Source of the DNA: Escherichia phage LF82-41
Length of the DNA: 64,000 bases
Reading direction: 5' to 3' (one strand)
Sequence record: PV660463
Below, one piece after another: positions 19,521-57,741 of the stretch; the stretch's first letter is position 1, and each line of letters starts with the position of its first letter. A program made the translations under genes and the position numbers. A model generated the notes under the pieces. The model was not told the origin of the DNA. It ran no database searches and was given only the letters and a program-made list of their open reading frames with translations.

Positions 19521-19736
19521 TTAAGCCTTTTTATCAAGAACAGAATTCAGTTTATTAGTAATTTTGTCCAAACGTTCATTGAATTCGCTGGAGGATAAAC
19601 CCTTTTCTGGAGAAATTAAACTAATCACGAAAAATACACCAGTAAAAGGAATAAGAAAAATAGCTCCAACTGCCATAAACAAAAAGAACGTTACAGTTGT
19701 AAGAAAATCAGCTAAACCTTTACGAAATTTGTACAT
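19521..19736 (-). CDS. small membrane protein (71 aa)
   Basis: ORF with long hydrophobic segment FLFMAVGAIFLIPFTGVFFVISLI. Confidence 0.5.
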   Translation of the reverse strand: MYKFRKGLADFLTTVTFFLFMAVGAIFLIPFTGVFFVISLISPEKGLSSSEFNERLDKITNKLNSVLDKKA

Positions 19737-30382: not shown

Positions 30383-30649
30383 TTACTTATCGCACTTAGC
30401 AACATAATTAGGCATATCACAGAATACGGAGCGTGTAACTACTCGACCCTTTGACCATGCTTCAGTTGCTTGTCCTGCCGTGCTATTAATATAGCTTGAT
30501 TTAATGTTCTCAATACCCTGAGAATGTGATGCATTTACCGAACCATTTGAAGGCCCGGAAGACTGGCTACCACCAGCTCCTGCACCCGTGGTAGCACCAA
30601 CAGAGAACGCCATCATTACTGCGAATAAACCAATTACTAATTTTTTCAT
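30383..30649 (-). CDS. small secreted protein (signal peptide, Gly/Ser-rich, 2 Cys)
   Basis: 88 aa; MKKLVIGLFAVMMAFSVGA signal-like N-terminus. Confidence 0.6.
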   Translation of the reverse strand: MKKLVIGLFAVMMAFSVGATTGAGAGGSQSSGPSNGSVNASHSQGIENIKSSYINSTAGQATEAWSKGRVVTRSVFCDMPNYVAKCDK

Positions 30650-33526: not shown

Positions 33527-33829
33527 TTAGATAGATGTAGGCTCTAATTTTATTTTCATGAACTCGGCAAATTGTCTGGCAGTTTTTATGCCTTGTTCAT
33601 GACATTCAAATGCATCATCACAGGGGCTATTTTTGTAATGCTTTGCCATATACTTATAGAATTTTTCAGAATTCTCAACATTTTGAATTTCAAACAAAGT
33701 ATATACGTTTTTAATCCCTGATTCCATAAAGTTATCAAAATATGGGTCAATATGTGCAGTACCAACGATAGGAGTTGTTGCTGCAAAAAACCCCAGCATC
33801 GCCATGACAGCTATCGCTCTTAAGGCCAT
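33527..33829 (-). CDS. rI: lysis-inhibition regulator RI (periplasmic antiholin)
   Basis: 100 aa; MALRAIAVMAMLGFFAA...DPYFDNFMESGIKNVYTLFE matches T4 RI. Confidence 0.85.
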   Translation of the reverse strand: MALRAIAVMAMLGFFAATTPIVGTAHIDPYFDNFMESGIKNVYTLFEIQNVENSEKFYKYMAKHYKNSPCDDAFECHEQGIKTARQFAEFMKIKLEPTSI

Positions 33830-35079: not shown

Positions 35080-35282
35080 TATTCTTCTACATGTTGTTTA
35101 CGGCCTTTCTTATCAATAAAGGTATATTCAACGAATGTTCCGATGTAGTCTTTATCTACATCATGTGGACTATTAATTGGACATTTAGTACGACAAATGC
35201 GTTCCCATTGACGAATAATTACTGCCTTATTCTTTGGATCATATGGATGTGGATAATGTATATTCATAATAACGGTTCCCAA
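35055..35282 (-). CDS. hypothetical protein (75 aa)
   Basis: ORF. Confidence 0.5.
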   Translation of the reverse strand: MGTVIMNIHYPHPYDPKNKAVIIRQWERICRTKCPINSPHDVDKDYIGTFVEYTFIDKKGRKQHVEEYCLKVTWL

Positions 35283-35761
35283 TCAACAATCACAATTTCT
35301 AGTTTAGTGGAATACGTATCTAAAATCTCTTCGATGACATCCCAGTTTCCACCACCAATACCTGCACCAATTCTTGGCATATAAATTACAGGCTTTGTTA
35401 TCTTATTCTTTCCAAATTCATTTAATTCTATTATACAATTCATTAAAGCAGAGTACTCAAAATTAGGTCCCGGCTCAAACTGCGTATAAAGATTAAAGCA
35501 ATAAGCTTTATGGGTCTTAAAATATTTTTCATAAACCGAATAAGTCCCGAGTTTAGACTCGTCTCCGAATTCGGTTTGAAGTTTATCGGCTTCCAGAATT
35601 TTTGGATAAGCCTTTGCTAATTGTCCTGCCACACCGGCGCCCATTGTATGAAAACAATTACACCCATGAGCAATATTATTACCTTTAGAAAACAGGGCGA
35701 CAATATCGCCCTTGATATAGTTTTTAATCACTTGCTGCAAGTCCTCTAGTATAAGAGTCAA
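35264..35761 (-). CDS. macro-domain protein (ADP-ribose binding/processing)
   Basis: 165 aa; NNIAHGCNCFHTMGAGVAGQLAKAYP and RIGAGIGGGNW resemble macro-domain glycine-rich loops. Confidence 0.65.
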   Translation of the reverse strand: MTLILEDLQQVIKNYIKGDIVALFSKGNNIAHGCNCFHTMGAGVAGQLAKAYPKILEADKLQTEFGDESKLGTYSVYEKYFKTHKAYCFNLYTQFEPGPNFEYSALMNCIIELNEFGKNKITKPVIYMPRIGAGIGGGNWDVIEEILDTYSTKLEIVIVDWEPLL

Positions 35762-36071
35762 CTAGGCGGTCCACCATAGAATTGCATGCTGCCTTATCTT
35801 TAGGTTCCGCCACCGAGCATTCTAATATTTGCCATTTTTTATAGTATCTTTTAATTAAGGTAGACGCCTTGAACCTACTAGACGCCCCATCTTTTTCTCC
35901 GTCTTTATACGCATATAACAATTTTTGTGAAAAATCTACTTTACACTCTTGACTTTTACCACAATAATCAGACGCCGTTCTGTTTGTATACTCCGTTACA
36001 TCAGTATATGTAGTATTAGCAAGAGCGTTAAATGAAACCAAGCCAACTATTAAAGCTAACATTTTGGTCAT
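35724..36071 (-). CDS. secreted/periplasmic protein (signal peptide, 4 Cys)
   Basis: 115 aa; MTKMLALIVGLVSFNALA signal-like. Confidence 0.6.
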   Translation of the reverse strand: MTKMLALIVGLVSFNALANTTYTDVTEYTNRTASDYCGKSQECKVDFSQKLLYAYKDGEKDGASSRFKASTLIKRYYKKWQILECSVAEPKDKAACNSMVDRLVDSYTRGLAASD

Positions 36072-36610
36072 TCTTTTATTTCCAGTAGTTTATTTGATTT
36101 AAGGTAATTAGCCTTTTCTAGGACTTCAGAAGCATATTTACTTCCAGCACTTGTCTTCCATCCCGCATTATATGAGGATATAGCTTTTCTTATATCCCCG
36201 TTATGTATATTTAACCAATAAGAAAATTCGATATAAGCCCATCTTGCTGAATTAGACCGCTTAGATAGCATTTTCTTAATTTGGGCATCAGTCATATTAT
36301 AACCAAGCTGGTTAATTCTTGCCCTCATTGTTGGTAGATAATTTTGGAACATTCCATACGCATGGTGACCTTTCTTATCTTTAAGATTAATACCGGCAGA
36401 TGATTCCTGCCATAGTATTGCGGCCATTATGTATCCAAGTCCTTTCTTATGCATATTTTCATGCGTTTTAAATTTTCCATCCTTAGAAAACTGTTCCCCA
36501 AACTGATAAGCATAATTCAAGTTATCGAGTTGGACATTACTAAAAGTATGCTCGGAGCTATGTGCTGATAACGAAAGAGCAAATAGACCAGCGAGTAGTG
36601 CTTTTCTCAT
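36068..36610 (-). CDS. periplasmic lytic-transglycosylase-like (SLT-domain) protein
   Basis: 180 aa; signal peptide; WQESS..., YGMFQ, SYNAGW motifs typical of SLT domain. Confidence 0.65.
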   Translation of the reverse strand: MRKALLAGLFALSLSAHSSEHTFSNVQLDNLNYAYQFGEQFSKDGKFKTHENMHKKGLGYIMAAILWQESSAGINLKDKKGHHAYGMFQNYLPTMRARINQLGYNMTDAQIKKMLSKRSNSARWAYIEFSYWLNIHNGDIRKAISSYNAGWKTSAGSKYASEVLEKANYLKSNKLLEIKE

Positions 36611-36618
36611 GTTTACCT

Positions 36619-37077
36619 CTAGATTTTAATCACTGCTTTAGAAGCTTTTCCTGGTAGTCGTTTACTGTTAATAATAGCCATTCTGCATTGAAGAGTCTTC
36701 ATTTTGAATGCTGGATTTTCGCGACAGACTGTAAGTCCTAACCAAAGATTTCCGTCAGTTATTTCTAAACGGCCTGGGCGATATTCGACACCTTCGACAA
36801 AATCTTCATCAACATCTGGACGTGCCGGCATTGATAAAAATTCTGCAACTTCTTTAACATGATTTTTTACTTTATGAAATAATTCAAAAACGTAATTCTC
36901 ATCTATTTCTCTCTGGATGGCACGATCTAAGAGATGTTGAGAATACTTGATATGAAAGCCTGGTAGTCCAAGAGACTTTGCAGCATCTTTTATACCGGCA
37001 TTTATTTTGCGGAACTCCGTTTCAAAGATTCGACGGAGTTTATTACGGCGGATAAAAACTTCCGAATTGATAGTCAT
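36619..37077 (-). CDS. regB: endoribonuclease RegB
   Basis: MTINSEVFIRRNKLRR...LQCRMAIINSKRLPGKASKAVIK matches T4 RegB; start at internal Met. Confidence 0.9.
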   Translation of the reverse strand: MTINSEVFIRRNKLRRIFETEFRKINAGIKDAAKSLGLPGFHIKYSQHLLDRAIQREIDENYVFELFHKVKNHVKEVAEFLSMPARPDVDEDFVEGVEYRPGRLEITDGNLWLGLTVCRENPAFKMKTLQCRMAIINSKRLPGKASKAVIKI

Positions 37078-37085
37078 TTTGATTT

Positions 37086-37137
37086 CTCCTCTAGTTGACA
37101 AGTCTATAGTAACACAACTAGAGGAGAAGTAAACTAC
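37086..37137 (-). promoter_or_regulatory. early-promoter/stem-loop cassette with 12-bp inverted repeat
   Basis: ctcctctagttg...caactagaggag; minus-strand GTTTAC-17-TACTAT; upstream of regB. Confidence 0.55.
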
Positions 37138-40390: not shown

Positions 40391-40875
40391 ATATACGCTT
40401 TCCAAGTTCCTGTTTTAAATGTTGAGATTACGCGTTTCGCGCGATTAGGTGTCTGACGATACCATTTAGATTGAGCTAGATTTACTGCCGCTTCATCCCA
40501 ACGTTTCTGTTTAAGCATACGAAGAGAATTAGTAAAACCAGCGACGCCTGCTACACCCATTTGGAAGACCATATTGACCAATGCACACCGACGAACTGCA
40601 TCTAAAGAATCATATACCGGTTTAAGTTTAGCATTACCCAAGATTCCGCGGACGGCTTTATCAACGTCTTCATTAAATAGCTTTTCAGCCTCATCAAGGG
40701 TAATTGTACCGTTGCATTTACGACCGATCATTCTGTCAAGTTCAGCTTTAGCTACGGCTAAAGACGGGTTCTTTGTTACTAAATGGCCTATGCCAATCGT
40801 CCAAAAGCCTTCAGTGTCTTTGTATAAAGTCAGTCTAAGACCTTCGTCATTACGAAGCATTTCAAATATATTCAT
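40387..40875 (-). CDS. e: lysozyme (endolysin)
   Basis: [32 protein letters not shown]... matches T4 lysozyme. Confidence 0.95.
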
Positions 40876-42769: not shown

Positions 42770-43075
42770 TTATTTTCCTCGACATTCTTTAATGAAATTT
42801 TCTAGATTGGTAGATTCAATAGCTTTTTTACGAGCTTCTGCGTGTTCTTCTTCGGACAATTTACGTTTATAATTGACCCAGACATTATGGTCGAAACCAG
42901 TCGTGGCATATAATATCAAAGCTCCGACGAATAATAAAAACGGTGATAAAAATATACAACCAGGAACACCATCCATATCGTAAGCCTTTTGTAATACTGC
43001 AACAGAAAGAGCTGCGTAAAAAAGTGATACAAATATTGTTAAAAGACCAATTCGGTTGGTTTCTGTTAATTTCAT
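42770..43075 (-). CDS. small membrane protein (101 aa)
   Basis: ORF with two TM-like segments. Confidence 0.55.
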   Translation of the reverse strand: MKLTETNRIGLLTIFVSLFYAALSVAVLQKAYDMDGVPGCIFLSPFLLFVGALILYATTGFDHNVWVNYKRKLSEEEHAEARKKAIESTNLENFIKECRGK

Positions 43076-50941: not shown

Positions 50942-51127
50942 TTACTCACCTTTTGCAATTTTATCCATAACAATAGCGATTAAACCGATTAGAAATGCTA
51001 CTACCAATGAGATAGAATTTTCAGTTGTTGTCAGTAGTCCACAAATGAATCCTACAAACATCGAAAAACTAAAAGCCATTGAAGCAATTACTACAGCAAC
51101 ATTACGAATCAGTTCAGCGCGTTTCAT
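50942..51127 (-). CDS. small membrane protein (61 aa)
   Basis: ORF with two hydrophobic helices. Confidence 0.5.
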   Translation of the reverse strand: MKRAELIRNVAVVIASMAFSFSMFVGFICGLLTTTENSISLVVAFLIGLIAIVMDKIAKGE

Positions 51128-56008: not shown

Positions 56009-57741
56009 TGGAAATGATTAGCAGTAGCCTTAATTGGTTCGTGGGTGTTGTCGAGGACAGAATGGACCCATTAAAACAAGGGCGAGTTCGAGTTCGAGTC
56101 GTTGGTCTTCATCCAGCACAGAGAGCACAAGGTGATGTACAAGGTATTCCTACAGAAAAACTTCCATGGATGACTGTTATTCAACCTATTACGTCTGCGT
56201 CAATGTCAGGTATTGGTGGTTCTGTTACAGGTCCTGTTGAAGGAACTCGAGTATATGGTCATTTCTTAGACAAATGGAAAACAAACGGGATTGTACTTGG
56301 TACATACGGTGGAATCGTACGTGAAAAGCCTAATAGACTTGAAGGTTTTTCAGACCCGACAGGCCAGTATCCGCGACGTTTAGGTAATGATACGAACGTA
56401 TTAAACCAAGGTGGTGAAGCTGGTTATTATTCGAACTCTAACGTAATTCAAGATAACAACTTGGATTATGGTATAAACCCAGACGATACAGATTTAGCAA
56501 ATATTCCAGAAGATGATGACCCTAATTTTACAATAACAGAAATGTTGCGACGTGACGAAGGTCTTCGTGATAAAGTGTATTGGGACCATCTCGGGTATCC
56601 TACAGTAGGTATTGGACACCTTATCGTAATGGAAAAGACCCGAGATATGTCTCGAATTAATAAATTGTTATCTGATCAAGTAGGGCGTGAAGTAACAGGA
56701 AATCCGGGAACTATTACATTAGAAGAAGCAACAGCGTTATTTGAGAAGGACCTTGCTAAGATGCAGAAAGATATTCGTTCTAATTCTAAAGTAGGTCCTG
56801 TTTATGCTAAAATGAACAGGTCTCGTCAAATGGCATTAGAAAACATGTGCTTCCAAATGGGCGTTGGTGGTGTAGCAAAATTCAATACTATGCTTAAAGC
56901 AATGGCCGAAGGTGATTGGAAAACTGCATACAAATCTGGGCGCGATTCATTATGGTTCCAACAGACTAAAGGACGTGCTTCACGCGTAACAACAATTATT
57001 TTAACTGGTAACATGGAATCGTATGGTGTTCCTGTTAAAACACCACCTTCACCAGGAGTTGGTGCCGATTTAGTTACTAGAAATACCGATTCAGAAGACC
57101 CGGCTGGTCCTCCTGTTCCATTAGATTCACGCATCCTTTTTAAAGAACCGGAATCAAGTTATCGTGGTGAGTATCCATATGTTCATGCTATGGAAACAGA
57201 AAGTGGTCATATCCAAGAATTTGATGACACTCCAGGTAATGAACGTTATCGCTTAGTTCATCCAACAGGGTCATATGAGGAAGTTTCTCCATCCGGTCGT
57301 CGTACTCGTAAAACTGTAGAAGACCTTTTTGACATCACTAATGGTGATGGGAACTTCTTGATTTCTGGTGATAAACTTGTTAACGTTGGTGCTAATGAAA
57401 TATATTATAACATGGCAGACCGCCTCCATCAAATAGACGGTAATGACACAATCTTTATTCGTGGTAACCAATCTAAAACTGTTGAAGGTGACGGAACTCT
57501 TTACGTTAAGGGCAATATCAAAATAGTTGTTGACGGAAATGCAGATATTCTTGTTAAAGGTGATGCTAAAACTCAGGTTGAAGGGAATCACGATTACACC
57601 GTCAACGGAAACGTTAAATGGACTGTTAATGGTAATGTTGATATGACTGTTGCCGGGGATTGGGCAGAAACAATGTCCACAATGAGCTCAGTAGCTTCAG
57701 GACAATACACTGTTGACGGATCTCGTATTGATATTGGGTAA
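56008..57741 (+). CDS. 5: baseplate hub / cell-puncturing protein with lysozyme domain
   Basis: 577 aa; OB-fold N-terminus, lysozyme block DEGLRDKVYWDHLGYPTVGIGHL, C-terminal beta-helix VxGxxxxx repeats. Confidence 0.95.
   Translation: MEMISSSLNWFVGVVEDRMDPLKQGRVRVRVVGLHPAQRAQGDVQGIPTEKLPWMTVIQPITSASMSGIGGSVTGPVEGTRVYGHFLDKWKTNGIVLGTYGGIVREKPNRLEGFSDPTGQYPRRLGNDTNVLNQGGEAGYYSNSNVIQDNNLDYGINPDDTDLANIPEDDDPNFTITEMLRRDEGLRDKVYWDHLGYPTVGIGHLIVMEKTRDMSRINKLLSDQVGREVTGNPGTITLEEATALFEKDLAKMQKDIRSNSKVGPVYAKMNRSRQMALENMCFQMGVGGVAKFNTMLKAMAEGDWKTAYKSGRDSLWFQQTKGRASRVTTIILTGNMESYGVPVKTPPSPGVGADLVTRNTDSEDPAGPPVPLDSRILFKEPESSYRGEYPYVHAMETESGHIQEFDDTPGNERYRLVHPTGSYEEVSPSGRRTRKTVEDLFDITNGDGNFLISGDKLVNVGANEIYYNMADRLHQIDGNDTIFIRGNQSKTVEGDGTLYVKGNIKIVVDGNADILVKGDAKTQVEGNHDYTVNGNVKWTVNGNVDMTVAGDWAETMSTMSSVASGQYTVDGSRIDIG

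What the first reader, a model, noticed from the sequence alone, without database searches (positions are those of the whole stretch)
35724..36610. Two secreted/periplasmic proteins including an SLT-domain lytic transglycosylase, separate from endolysin e and gp5
Both ORFs have signal peptides; the second carries SLT-like motifs. The phage already has endolysin e and the gp5 lysozyme. A third, exported murein-active protein could act in superinfection exclusion or cell-wall remodelling rather than lysis.
Basis: partly seen in the sequence, partly recalled or inferred. Interest (0 to 1): 0.4.

Follow-up and report, generated by a model that had tools for sequence, protein, structure and literature searches.

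The report
T4 vs.1–vs exported gene pair
These are the conserved phage T4 genes vs.1 (a small cell-wall-cutting enzyme) and vs (a tiny four-helix protein); both look exported to the periplasm, which is unremarkable for vs.1 but conflicts with the old label of vs as a modifier of a cytoplasmic tRNA synthetase.

Summary
The window is a T4-like Mosigvirus. The two minus-strand ORFs are orthologs of T4 vs.1 (36068..36610, 180 aa) and vs (35724..36071, 115 aa), lying between regB and tk.4.

Vs.1 has a Sec-type signal, the invariant SLT motifs (E69-S, GMFQN, SYNAG) and a confident GH23/lysozyme-like model. This SLT resemblance was already published in 2006, so the feature is known.

All its homologs carry a signal peptide, and one lineage carries a lipoprotein signal. 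They also have four invariant cysteines on an orphan four-helix bundle.

The vs start overlaps the vs.1 stop (ATGA). In 64 of 70 Vs.1 loci a Vs-type gene follows, abutting in 56. All 27 Vs loci have Vs.1 directly upstream.

Published transposon data for T4 and Bas37 show that insertions in either gene lower fitness. vs is the strongest T4 gene needed in minimal medium.

Best reading: a co-expressed periplasmic module of a lytic transglycosylase and a small partner, used for wall remodelling rather than lysis. The synthetase-modifier annotation remains unreconciled. Interest is moderate.

The parts
36068..36610 (-). vs.1 ortholog: 180-aa precursor of an exported SLT/GH23-fold lytic transglycosylase (mature form about 162 aa, 18.7 kDa, pI 9.6)
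   Evidence: ORF. phrog_600 E 3.7e-67. 82% identical to T4 Vs.1. Pfam SLT hit. AF2 model with pLDDT 90.4. Foldseek top hits are a GH23 chitinase, MltD, Slt and phi6 lysin.
36557..36610 (-). Vs.1 signal peptide (residues 1-18, MRKALLAGLFALSLSAHS; predicted cleavage AHS|SE)
   Evidence: Signal-like N-terminus in 39 of 40 homologs. pLDDT is 65-68 here against 90 or more in most of the rest.
36392..36412 (-). SLT motif I, WQESSAG, with the putative catalytic Glu69 (codon 36404..36406)
   Evidence: E69 and S71 are invariant in 40 homologs. Coordinates verified.
36341..36355 (-). SLT motif II, GMFQN (G86, Q89 and N90 invariant)
36161..36175 (-). SLT motif III, SYNAG (Y147, N148 and G150 invariant)
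36616..36619 (-). GAGG ribosome-binding site of vs.1, overlapping the regB stop codon
36068..36071 (-). ATGA overlap: the vs start codon overlaps the vs.1 stop codon, implying translational coupling. vs has only a weak Shine-Dalgarno sequence of its own.
   Evidence: The gap between the two genes is -8 to +7 nt in 56 related loci.
35724..36071 (-). vs ortholog: 115-aa precursor of a small exported four-helix, four-Cys protein (mature form about 97 aa, 11.0 kDa), annotated 'valyl-tRNA synthetase modifier'
   Evidence: phrog_1256 E 5e-35. 65% identical to T4 Vs. AF2 model with pLDDT 87 and helices 20-37, 41-64, 69-85 and 90-114. No fold or sequence relative outside its own family.
36018..36071 (-). 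Vs signal peptide (residues 1-18, MTKMLALIVGLVSFNALA; predicted cleavage ALA|NT)
   Evidence: pLDDT is 50-55. The sequence varies but the architecture is kept in all homologs, and four sequences have a lipobox (LSGC) instead.
35784..35963 (-). Span holding the four invariant cysteines: C37 (35961..35963), C43 (35943..35945), C85 (35817..35819) and C96 (35784..35786). They sit at the two helix-hairpin turns.
   Evidence: Invariant in 38 homologs and in the divergent subfamily.
36619..37101 (-). Context: regB endoribonuclease, immediately upstream
   Evidence: Pfam REGB_T4 E 4.9e-69.
35264..35731 (-). Context: tk.4 macro-domain gene, immediately downstream. Its GTG start overlaps the vs stop. 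The T4 ortholog was recently named AdfM, an anti-DarTG2 factor.
   Evidence: Pfam Macro. Annotation of related phages. Start verified. bioRxiv 10.1101/2025.11.20.689424.

Best explanation
The two ORFs are the Mosigvirus orthologs of T4 vs.1 and vs. They form one co-expressed, translationally coupled module whose two products are both exported by the Sec pathway.

Vs.1, after removal of an 18-residue signal, is a small soluble periplasmic lytic transglycosylase of the SLT/GH23 kind. Its catalytic Glu69 sits at the end of a helix and it has no conserved second acidic residue. It would therefore cleave murein glycan strands to 1,6-anhydro-MurNAc ends.

Vs, after signal removal, is an 11-kDa four-helix bundle. 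Its two hairpin turns are probably each stapled by a disulfide.

The module is made from the early/middle period. It improves phage yield without being required for lysis, so it most likely remodels or locally opens the host sacculus during infection. Vs most likely acts as a positive partner (cofactor, targeting or stabilising subunit) of Vs.1, not as its inhibitor.

Status of each step:
- Shown: orthology, motifs, fold, signal-like N-termini, conserved gene linkage, expression and fitness effect in T4.
- Inferred: actual export, disulfides, enzymatic activity, physical partnership, the wall-remodelling purpose.
For: Identity and synteny (regB - vs.1 - vs - tk.4).

Vs.1:
- SLT is the only Pfam family, hit by 37 of 40 members.
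- E69, G86/Q89/N90 and Y147/N148/G150 are invariant.
- The AF2 model has pLDDT 90.4.
- Foldseek hits are all GH23-type folds: 3w6e, MltD 8rhi, Slt 6fcq/1sly, phi6 P5 4dq5.

Export:
- Both proteins have n-h-c signals, kept in 39 of 40 and 35 of 37 homologs against 8 of 120 window ORFs.
- The N-termini vary in sequence but not in architecture.
- Four distinct Vs-like sequences (CC31/PG7 type) have a lipoprotein lipobox instead.
- Four cysteines are invariant.
- His-tagged full-length Vs made in the cytoplasm is insoluble (PMC8076793).

Linkage:
- The genes overlap by ATGA.
- 56 of 70 IMG/VR Vs.1 loci have a Vs or Vs-like gene abutting, and 8 more have one within 0.5-1.2 kb.
- 27 of 27 Vs loci have Vs.1 directly upstream.
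- The pair extends to Acinetobacter phages and Slopekvirus-like contigs.

Expression: both proteins are detected in T4 infection, with early RNA (PMC9697503 supplement).

Fitness (HIDEN-SEQ, bioRxiv 10.1101/2025.11.20.689424):
- In LB liquid, mean reads per TA site are 26.6 (vs) and 22.6 (vs.1), against 179-652 for the flanking genes.
- In M9 glucose versus LB, vs changes by log2FC -2.19 (adjusted p 0) and vs.1 by -0.87 (p 0.0055).
- The same pattern appears in phage Bas37: 23.5 and 73.8 against about 325.
- Both genes are non-essential on LB plates.
Against: - No dedicated signal-peptide predictor was available, and export is not shown experimentally.
- This Vs.1 scores below the Pfam SLT gathering threshold (18.8 against 21.3 bits).
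- A profile of the family finds no solved transglycosylase by sequence.
- Foldseek E-values are only about 1e-2, with TM about 0.5.
- Vs has a long-standing biochemical and genetic link to cytoplasmic valyl-tRNA synthetase (references listed in PMC8076793; details from my own knowledge of the 1966-1980 literature). The minimal-medium phenotype of the vs deletion fits a translation role at least as well.
- The vs.1 insertion phenotype could be polarity on vs through translational coupling, so it does not prove that Vs.1 itself matters.
- Vs.1 occurs without any Vs-like gene in the stretches examined of Aeromonas phages, Felixounavirus, Ackermannviridae and two jumbo-phage contigs. Vs is therefore not an obligatory subunit.
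- Four cysteines could bind a metal instead of forming disulfides.
Confidence: 0.55

Rival explanations
1. Vs is what its annotation says: a cytoplasmic protein that binds host valyl-tRNA synthetase and helps translation when amino acids are scarce. Its hydrophobic N-terminus is not used, or only partly used, for export. Its position after vs.1 is mere synteny. Only Vs.1 is periplasmic.
For: - Classical work describes a T4-coded factor of about 10 kDa bound to ValRS and vs mutants that interact genetically with valS (Muller and Marchin 1975/1977, cited in PMC8076793; the rest from my own knowledge).
- The vs deletion impairs plaques specifically in M9 glucose, and vs is the strongest conditional gene there.
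- vs insertions are more depleted in M9 than vs.1 insertions (-2.19 against -0.87).
Against: - A textbook signal peptide is conserved in architecture but not in sequence in all full-length homologs.
- One lineage has a lipoprotein signal, which would anchor the protein outside the cytoplasm.
- Four cysteines are invariant.
- The 85-aa natural variants lack one Cys pair but keep the other, which fits two independent disulfides better than one metal site.
- The gene is strictly linked and translationally coupled to an exported enzyme.
- The protein is insoluble when made in the cytoplasm with its N-terminus blocked.
- I could not find how the sequenced ORF was tied to the genetic vs locus, because the old papers are not held.
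Confidence: 0.25
2. Vs is a periplasmic inhibitor, or immunity-like brake, of Vs.1. It would work in the manner of Ivy, PliG or T4 Spackle, keeping an early-made murein enzyme from lysing the cell prematurely.
For: - The two proteins share a predicted compartment, are made in 1:1 coupled fashion and are conserved together.
- Vs has a disulfide-closed loop, C-x5/6-C, with a conserved Asn.
- Loss of vs is harmful.
Against: - If Vs only restrained a toxic Vs.1, insertions in vs.1 should be neutral. They are 8-29 fold (T4) and 4-7 fold (Bas37) rarer than insertions in flanking genes.
- There is no sequence or fold similarity to Ivy, MliC/PliC, PliG, LprI or Spackle.
- Vs.1 exists without Vs in several phage groups.
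Confidence: 0.1
3. Vs.1 is an accessory or back-up lysis enzyme, a secreted or signal-anchor-release endolysin that contributes to lysis timing together with e, t and the nearby rI genes.
For: - It has a muralytic fold with an N-terminal export signal rich in Ala, Gly and Ser.
- The rI region lies about 2 kb away.
- The Felixounavirus homolog is annotated 'putative lysin' and lies near rIIA/rIIB and the spanin genes.
Against: - Transcription is early, not late.
- The gene lies between regB and anti-defence or nucleotide-metabolism genes, not in a lysis cassette.
- It is non-essential, while the holin t is essential in the same screen.
- From textbook knowledge, T4 e mutants do not lyse, so Vs.1 cannot replace e.
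Confidence: 0.07

Closest known systems
T4 Vs.1 (UniProt P13311, Y06E_BPT4) and its orthologs, named 'transglycosylase SLT domain-containing protein' in UniRef
   Same: It is an ortholog: 82% identical, same length, same position between regB and vs, same motifs and signal.
   Different: Nothing material. The family has been described only by sequence similarity (PMC1524935), and I found no functional study.
T4 Vs (UniProt P13310), 'valyl-tRNA synthetase modifier' (phrog_1256; precomputed Pfam PF26829)
   Same: It is an ortholog: 65% identical, 115 aa, same position, same four Cys and the same C-terminal SMVDRLVDSY-RGL motif.
   Different: The annotated function is cytoplasmic. The sequence features of the whole family point to the cell envelope. 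The wider family found here includes a divergent 99-119 aa subfamily and lipoprotein forms.
Small Sec-exported 'specialised' family-1 lytic transglycosylases of bacterial machines (VirB1, IpgF/IagB, EtgA, SltF) and E. coli Slt70, MltD and EmtA
   Same: Same E-S, G-x-x-Q and Y-N-x-G motifs and lysozyme-like fold. Like the specialised enzymes, it is a single domain of about 160 aa behind a signal peptide. From general knowledge, several of those enzymes work with a protein partner.
   Different: It is phage-encoded and made early in a lytic infection. It has a family-specific N-terminal helix (FS..Q..NL.YAY.FG). It has no known envelope-spanning machine to serve. Sequence similarity to solved enzymes is too low for a profile search to find them.
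Phage muralytic proteins: T4 e and gp5 lysozymes, phi6 P5 lysin, virion SLT domains such as T7 gp16
   Same: All are murein-cleaving folds of the lysozyme superfamily. phi6 P5 is among the structural hits.
   Different: e is cytoplasmic until the holin fires, and gp5 and T7 gp16 are virion parts (textbook knowledge). Vs.1 carries its own export signal, is early and is dispensable for plaque formation.
T4 Spackle-gp5, Ivy-MltB and PliG-type periplasmic inhibitor/enzyme pairs
   Same: Each pairs a small exported protein with a lysozyme-fold enzyme. Vs has a disulfide-closed loop reminiscent of Ivy (inference).
   Different: There is no sequence or fold similarity. The transposon data argue against pure inhibition.

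Membership tests
SLT / GH23 family-1 lytic transglycosylase (Pfam PF01464) | Match to the family HMM above the curated threshold | tested here: inconclusive
   This protein scores 18.8 bits, E 0.0013, below the 21.3 cut-off. SLT is nevertheless the only Pfam family, hit by 37 of 40 homologs at E<=0.01, best 1.3e-7. Several homologs carry precomputed PF01464.
SLT / GH23 family-1 lytic transglycosylase (Pfam PF01464) | Signature motifs: catalytic Glu followed by Ser (E-S), G-[LM]-x-Q, and [AS]-Y-N-x-G | tested here: met
   WQE69SSAG, G86-M-F-Q89-N and S-Y147-N-A-G150 are present. E69, S71, G86, Q89, N90, Y147, N148 and G150 are invariant in 40 sequences.
SLT / GH23 family-1 lytic transglycosylase (Pfam PF01464) | All-helical lysozyme-like fold | tested here: met
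   AF2 gives pLDDT 90.4 and pTM 0.83. The best PDB matches are all GH23-type folds (3w6e, 8rhi, 6fcq, 5o2n, 1sly, 4dq5) with probability 0.9-1.0, though E is about 1e-2 and TM about 0.5.
SLT / GH23 family-1 lytic transglycosylase (Pfam PF01464) | Non-hydrolytic cleavage of MurNAc-GlcNAc bonds giving 1,6-anhydro-MurNAc | not testable with these tools
   This needs purified mature protein and muropeptide analysis.
Sec-exported (signal peptidase I) periplasmic proteins | Tripartite n-h-c signal with small residues at -3/-1 | tested here: met
   Rule-based test of my own. It passes 39 of 40 and 35 of 37 homologs and 8 of 120 window ORFs, and it recovers the RI protein as a positive control. SignalP was not available.
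Sec-exported (signal peptidase I) periplasmic proteins | Demonstrated cleavage and periplasmic location | not testable with these tools
   No experimental data were found. The indirect support is lipobox variants of Vs, invariant Cys pairs and insolubility in the cytoplasm.
T4 Vs 'valyl-tRNA synthetase modifier' family (phrog_1256 / PF26829) | Sequence homology and synteny with T4 vs | tested here: met
   phrog_1256 E 5e-35. 65% identity to T4 Vs. Same gene order.
T4 Vs 'valyl-tRNA synthetase modifier' family (phrog_1256 / PF26829) | Binding to host ValRS | not testable with these tools
The primary papers are not held.
T4 Vs 'valyl-tRNA synthetase modifier' family (phrog_1256 / PF26829) | Cytoplasmic location, required for the named function | tested here: not met
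   The prediction only: a conserved signal peptide or lipobox plus four invariant Cys. This lowers confidence in the functional label, not in the orthology.
Periplasmic proteinaceous lysozyme/transglycosylase inhibitors (Ivy, MliC/PliC, PliG, LprI/DUF1311, T4 Spackle) | Sequence or fold similarity to a known inhibitor family | tested here: not met
   There is no Pfam hit in 37 members even at E<=10 and no PDB profile hit. Foldseek against PDB gives a best E of 0.95, with DUF1311 (3gi7) at rank 29 and probability 0.06.
Phage endolysin / lysis cassette member | Late expression, holin linkage, requirement for lysis | tested here: not met
   In T4 the RNA is early and the protein middle. The neighbours are regB and tk.4. 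The gene is non-essential in the transposon screen in which t is essential.

The most novel reading that the evidence does not exclude
The gene called vs for fifty years is not, or not mainly, a cytoplasmic modifier of valyl-tRNA synthetase. It would instead be the exported, disulfide-stapled partner of the periplasmic transglycosylase Vs.1. The strong requirement for vs in minimal medium would then reflect an envelope or peptidoglycan function of a two-protein module conserved in most T4-like (Straboviridae) phages sampled here. The ValRS association would be secondary: binding after cell breakage, a side activity of the unexported precursor, or assignment of the genetic locus to the wrong ORF.
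Probability: 0.3. Interest if true: 0.65.

Novelty: already known. Interest (0 to 1): 0.4.

Why it matters
As listed, the finding re-discovers two catalogued T4 genes and a domain similarity that is already in print.

What gives it some value is the mismatch it exposes. vs has just been shown to be the T4 gene most needed in minimal medium, and its role is stated to be unknown. Yet every member of its family looks like an envelope protein welded to an exported murein enzyme.

That turns an old open question, what vs is for, into a few cheap experiments: fractionation, signal-less complementation, and vs.1/vs epistasis.

If the envelope reading holds, it would correct a widely propagated annotation (several hundred phage records). 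It would also define a conserved early periplasmic wall-remodelling module in T4-like phages.

Tried and rejected
Searches that found nothing:
- Sequence searches of both proteins against PDB, and profile searches, gave nothing usable.
- NCBIfam gave no hit.
- An exhaustive HMMER search with Vs found only 7 representatives, all phage Vs, plus one low-complexity repeat protein (P0130) that I dismissed.

Ideas tested and dropped:
- The idea that Vs is an LprI/DUF1311- or Ivy-like inhibitor came from a rank-29 Foldseek hit and the four-Cys pattern. It found no support in Pfam scans of 37 members at E<=10 or in the fold searches. The transposon data also argue against it.
- A terminator-like hairpin sits just after the vs stop (35694..35712). 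It is conserved in T4 and VR26 but lies in the conserved KGDIVAL codons of tk.4 and is broken in phage F48. I do not count it as a terminator.
- The promoter scan found no enrichment (17 found against 20.3 expected).

Technical failures:
- A pattern scan with the mixed Vs/Vs-like alignment failed for lack of conserved stretches.

Literature:
- The old primary papers on the ValRS factor and the 2003 T4 genome review are not held. I therefore could not check how the ORF was assigned to the vs locus.
- One literature search on 'vs.1 vs.3 ...' returned only clinical papers.
- Searches by UniProt accession and for a functional study of Vs.1 found none.
Full report
**What is there**

The region 35.2-37.1 kb of the window carries four tightly packed minus-strand genes.
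- regB runs 36619..37101 (Pfam REGB_T4, E 4.9e-69).
- A 180-aa ORF runs 36068..36610.
- A 115-aa ORF runs 35724..36071.
- A macro-domain ORF follows, running 35264..35731 when read from its GTG start.

The 2-kb stretch is 99% identical to Mosigvirus phages such as ATK47 and vB_Eco_mar005P1, which are T4 relatives. Comparison with the T4 record shows the same order: regB - vs.1 - vs - tk.4. The two ORFs of the finding are therefore the orthologs of T4 vs.1 and vs. They are 82% and 65% identical to the T4 proteins. PHROGs gives phrog_600 ("unknown function", E 3.7e-67) and phrog_1256 ("valyl tRNA synthetase modifier", E 5e-35).

**Check of the observation**

Both N-termini have the classic Sec layout.
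- Vs.1 begins MRK / ALLAGLFALSLS / AHS|SE.
- Vs begins MTK / MLALIVGLVSF / NALA|NT.

No signal-peptide predictor was available, so I wrote a crude rule. It requires a positive n-region, an uncharged hydrophobic window with mean Kyte-Doolittle hydrophobicity of at least 1.9, and a -3/-1 small-residue site.
- It passes 39 of 40 Vs.1 homologs and 35 of 37 Vs homologs. The exceptions look like mis-called starts or truncations.
- It passes only 8 of 120 minus-strand ORFs of the window. Among them is the RI lysis-inhibition protein, which serves as a positive control.

In the alignments the first 20 or so residues vary freely in sequence while keeping this architecture. The mature parts are conserved. 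In both AlphaFold models the signal segment has low confidence and is not part of the fold.

The window also contains endolysin e (40393..40875, minus strand) and a second T4-lysozyme-like domain at 56533..57024 on the plus strand, taken to be gp5. Vs.1 is therefore indeed a third murein-active gene.

**Vs.1**
- Pfam SLT is the only family hit. This protein is just under the curated threshold (18.8 against 21.3 bits), but 37 of 40 homologs match, with a best E of 1.3e-7.
- The model is confident (pLDDT 90.4). Its best PDB neighbours are all GH23-type folds: a GH23 chitinase, MltD, Slt from Pseudomonas and E. coli, and the phi6 P5 lysin. Foldseek probability is near 1, but E-values are modest (about 1e-2) and TM is about 0.5.
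- A family profile does not reach any solved transglycosylase by sequence. This is therefore a remote subfamily.
- No second acidic residue is conserved between motifs I and II. This fits a transglycosylase rather than a hydrolytic goose-type lysozyme (inference).
- The family is large. It is found in 2060 phage records: T4-like phages of enterobacteria, Acinetobacter, Aeromonas and Vibrio, plus Ackermannviridae and Felixounavirus. The distant members inspected also carry signals.
- The SLT similarity of vs.1 was reported in 2006 with reference to the 2003 T4 genome paper (PMC1524935). UniRef already names many members "Transglycosylase SLT domain-containing protein".

**Vs**

- The family is narrow at the sequence level. 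An exhaustive search found 7 representatives at 50% clustering, and a profile search found 44 proteins.
- Four cysteines (C37, C43, C85, C96) and a C-terminal motif, C-SMVDRLVDSY-RGL, are invariant.
- The model (pLDDT 87) is a four-helix bundle. The Cys pairs sit at the helix 1-2 and helix 3-4 turns.
- It has no detectable relative in Pfam, PDB or BFVD outside its own family.

Looking downstream of Vs.1 in other phages revealed a divergent Vs-like subfamily of 99-119 aa with the consensus AK.FC..N.EC.D..S.ELD..Y..G ... C..AP....C..YR..L...Y..GL.
- The Acinetobacter member is tied to Vs by hhalign (probability 91.6) and by bridging tblastn hits.
- The Slopekvirus-like member is tied to the family by hhalign (probability 97.6, E 4e-12).
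- Every member has a signal-like N-terminus and the four cysteines.
- Four distinct sequences of the CC31/PG7 type have a lipobox (LSGC), which predicts a lipoprotein.
- Natural 85-aa variants lack the first Cys pair but keep the second. This fits two local disulfides better than one four-Cys metal site.
- Full-length His-tagged T4 Vs made in the cytoplasm is insoluble (PMC8076793).

Together this makes an envelope location the parsimonious prediction for the whole family.

**Linkage of the two genes**
- In the window the vs start codon overlaps the vs.1 stop (ATGA). vs has only a weak Shine-Dalgarno sequence, while vs.1 has GAGG.
- Of 70 IMG/VR loci encoding a Vs.1 relative, 56 have a Vs or Vs-like gene abutting it (gap -8 to +7 nt).
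- Eight more have one 0.5-1.2 kb downstream on the same strand, and six have none. The six are four Aeromonas-phage-type loci and two jumbo-phage contigs.
- Conversely, all 27 loci found with a Vs profile lie on contigs where Vs.1 is directly upstream.
- Within the roughly 2 kb examined on either side of the Vs.1 homolog, the Felixounavirus and Ackermannviridae representatives have no Vs-like gene.
- The pair is therefore a conserved module of most T4-like phages, but Vs.1 can exist alone.

**Expression and phenotype from the literature**
- In T4 both proteins are detected during infection. The RNA class is early and the protein class middle (PMC9697503 supplement).
- A 2025 preprint on phage transposon sequencing (bioRxiv 10.1101/2025.11.20.689424) reports vs as the strongest conditionally essential T4 gene in M9 glucose compared with LB. 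It confirms this with a deletion, while stating that the role of the ValRS modification is unknown.
- Both genes are "non-essential" on LB plates in its tables: 30 of 32 TA sites are hit in vs and 46 of 52 in vs.1.
- In LB liquid competition the mean reads per TA site are 26.6 (vs) and 22.6 (vs.1). The flanking genes give 179 (regB), 290 (tk.4), 265 (vs.4) and 652 (vs.3).
- In M9 versus LB, vs changes by log2FC -2.19 (adjusted p 0) and vs.1 by -0.87 (p 0.0055, adjusted 0.155).
- The second T-even phage in that study, Bas37, shows the same dip: 23.5 and 73.8 against about 325 for the neighbours.
- Insertions in regB, only 7-8 nt upstream of vs.1, are not depleted. Strong transcriptional polarity is therefore unlikely. 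Loss of translational coupling could still make vs.1 insertions lower Vs.
- The same preprint identifies the downstream gene tk.4 as AdfM, an anti-DarTG2 macrodomain.

**Interpretation**

The best-supported reading is a co-expressed periplasmic module. Vs.1 is a small soluble lytic transglycosylase, and Vs is a disulfide-stapled helical protein that works with it. The module is made from early/middle times and improves phage yield. It is dispensable for lysis, so it most likely remodels or locally opens the sacculus.

The transposon data disfavour the attractive idea that Vs merely inhibits a dangerous enzyme, because losing vs.1 is not neutral.

The main rival is the classical one: Vs acts in the cytoplasm on ValRS. 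The old biochemistry and genetics support it. The minimal-medium phenotype arguably supports it as well, since amino-acid supply and tRNA charging are limiting there.

I could not read the primary papers. I therefore could not establish how the sequenced ORF was tied to the genetic locus. The predicted mature mass is 11.0 kDa here and 11.1 kDa in T4. From memory, the purified factor was about 10 kDa, so the mature mass would fit a processed form. That is suggestive only.

The two views are not mutually exclusive, but a lipoprotein version of a cytoplasmic synthetase modifier is hard to picture.

**Verdict**

The added value of this re-examination has three parts:
- the demonstration that vs and vs.1 form a conserved, coupled, apparently exported pair;
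- the widening of the Vs family, including lipoprotein forms;
- the resulting conflict with the propagated annotation of vs, at a time when vs has acquired a clear but unexplained phenotype.

Noticed in passing
window 35264..35731 (-): This macro-domain gene (tk.4 ortholog) starts with a GTG that overlaps the vs stop. Its T4 ortholog was recently named AdfM, an anti-DarTG2 factor (bioRxiv 10.1101/2025.11.20.689424). The mechanical ORF list extends it to a TTG at 35761.
   Followed up: partly
window 35694..35712 (-): A G+C-rich 8-bp hairpin followed by a T-run lies 12 nt after the vs stop, inside the start of tk.4. It is conserved in T4 and VR26 but broken in Klebsiella phage F48. It coincides with the conserved codons KGDIVAL, so its conservation may be due to coding alone. 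One related GenBank record annotates a terminator within the matched 2-kb stretch.
   Followed up: partly
window 30383..30649 (-): An 88-aa ORF has a strong signal-peptide-like N-terminus followed by a Gly/Ser/Ala-rich low-complexity stretch. It matches phrog_2243 (unknown function) and may be another small exported protein.
   Followed up: partly
window 33527..33829 (-), 42770..43075 (-), 50942..51127 (-), 19521..19736 (-): These are the other ORFs with signal- or anchor-like N-termini. The first is the rI lysis-inhibition ortholog (phrog_1246). 42770..43075 matches phrog_9798 and, weakly, a 'membrane protein' family. 50942..51127 matches phrog_1692 (unknown function). 19521..19736 was not examined.
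   Followed up: partly
L005 2393..2650 (Escherichia phage vB_EcoM_005, Dhakavirus); also BFVD A0A2S1GR10 (IME340): A naturally shortened 85-aa Vs has an internal deletion that removes the first Cys pair and helix 2 but keeps the signal and the C-terminal half. It is either a decaying gene or a minimal functional form.
   Followed up: partly
L040-L042 and L065, ORF directly after the Vs.1 homolog (CC31/PG7-type contigs): These Vs-like proteins begin MKKLFVLLVVFALSGCK.., a lipobox with Lys at +2. This predicts outer-membrane lipoprotein versions of Vs.
   Followed up: partly
L006 2785..3784 (Acinetobacter phage AB-Navy1): Downstream of the vs.1-vs pair lie two more ORFs with signal- or anchor-like N-termini (141 aa and 99 aa), and then rI. 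The region looks like a cluster of envelope-directed genes.
   Followed up: no
L007 2799..3239, and L066/L077 (Aeromonas phages): Where Vs is absent, a 146-aa predicted lipoprotein (MKKSIA..YGC) lies between the Vs.1 homolog and the macro-domain gene. It has no detectable similarity to Vs and could be an analogous partner.
   Followed up: no
L008 1908..2456 (Felixounavirus skuden) and L009 1908..2525 (Salmonella phage 38, Ackermannviridae): Signal-bearing Vs.1-family proteins occur outside the T4-like phages. In Felixounavirus the gene sits right after rIIA/rIIB and is annotated 'putative lysin'. No Vs-like gene lies within 2 kb.
   Followed up: partly
HIDEN-SEQ Extended Data Table 6, sheet S8 (T4, LB versus M9): In the same table, insertions in nrdA, nrdB and td become relatively fitter in M9 (log2FC +1.4 to +2.3) and regB rises by +1.17. 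This is unrelated to the finding but striking.
   Followed up: no
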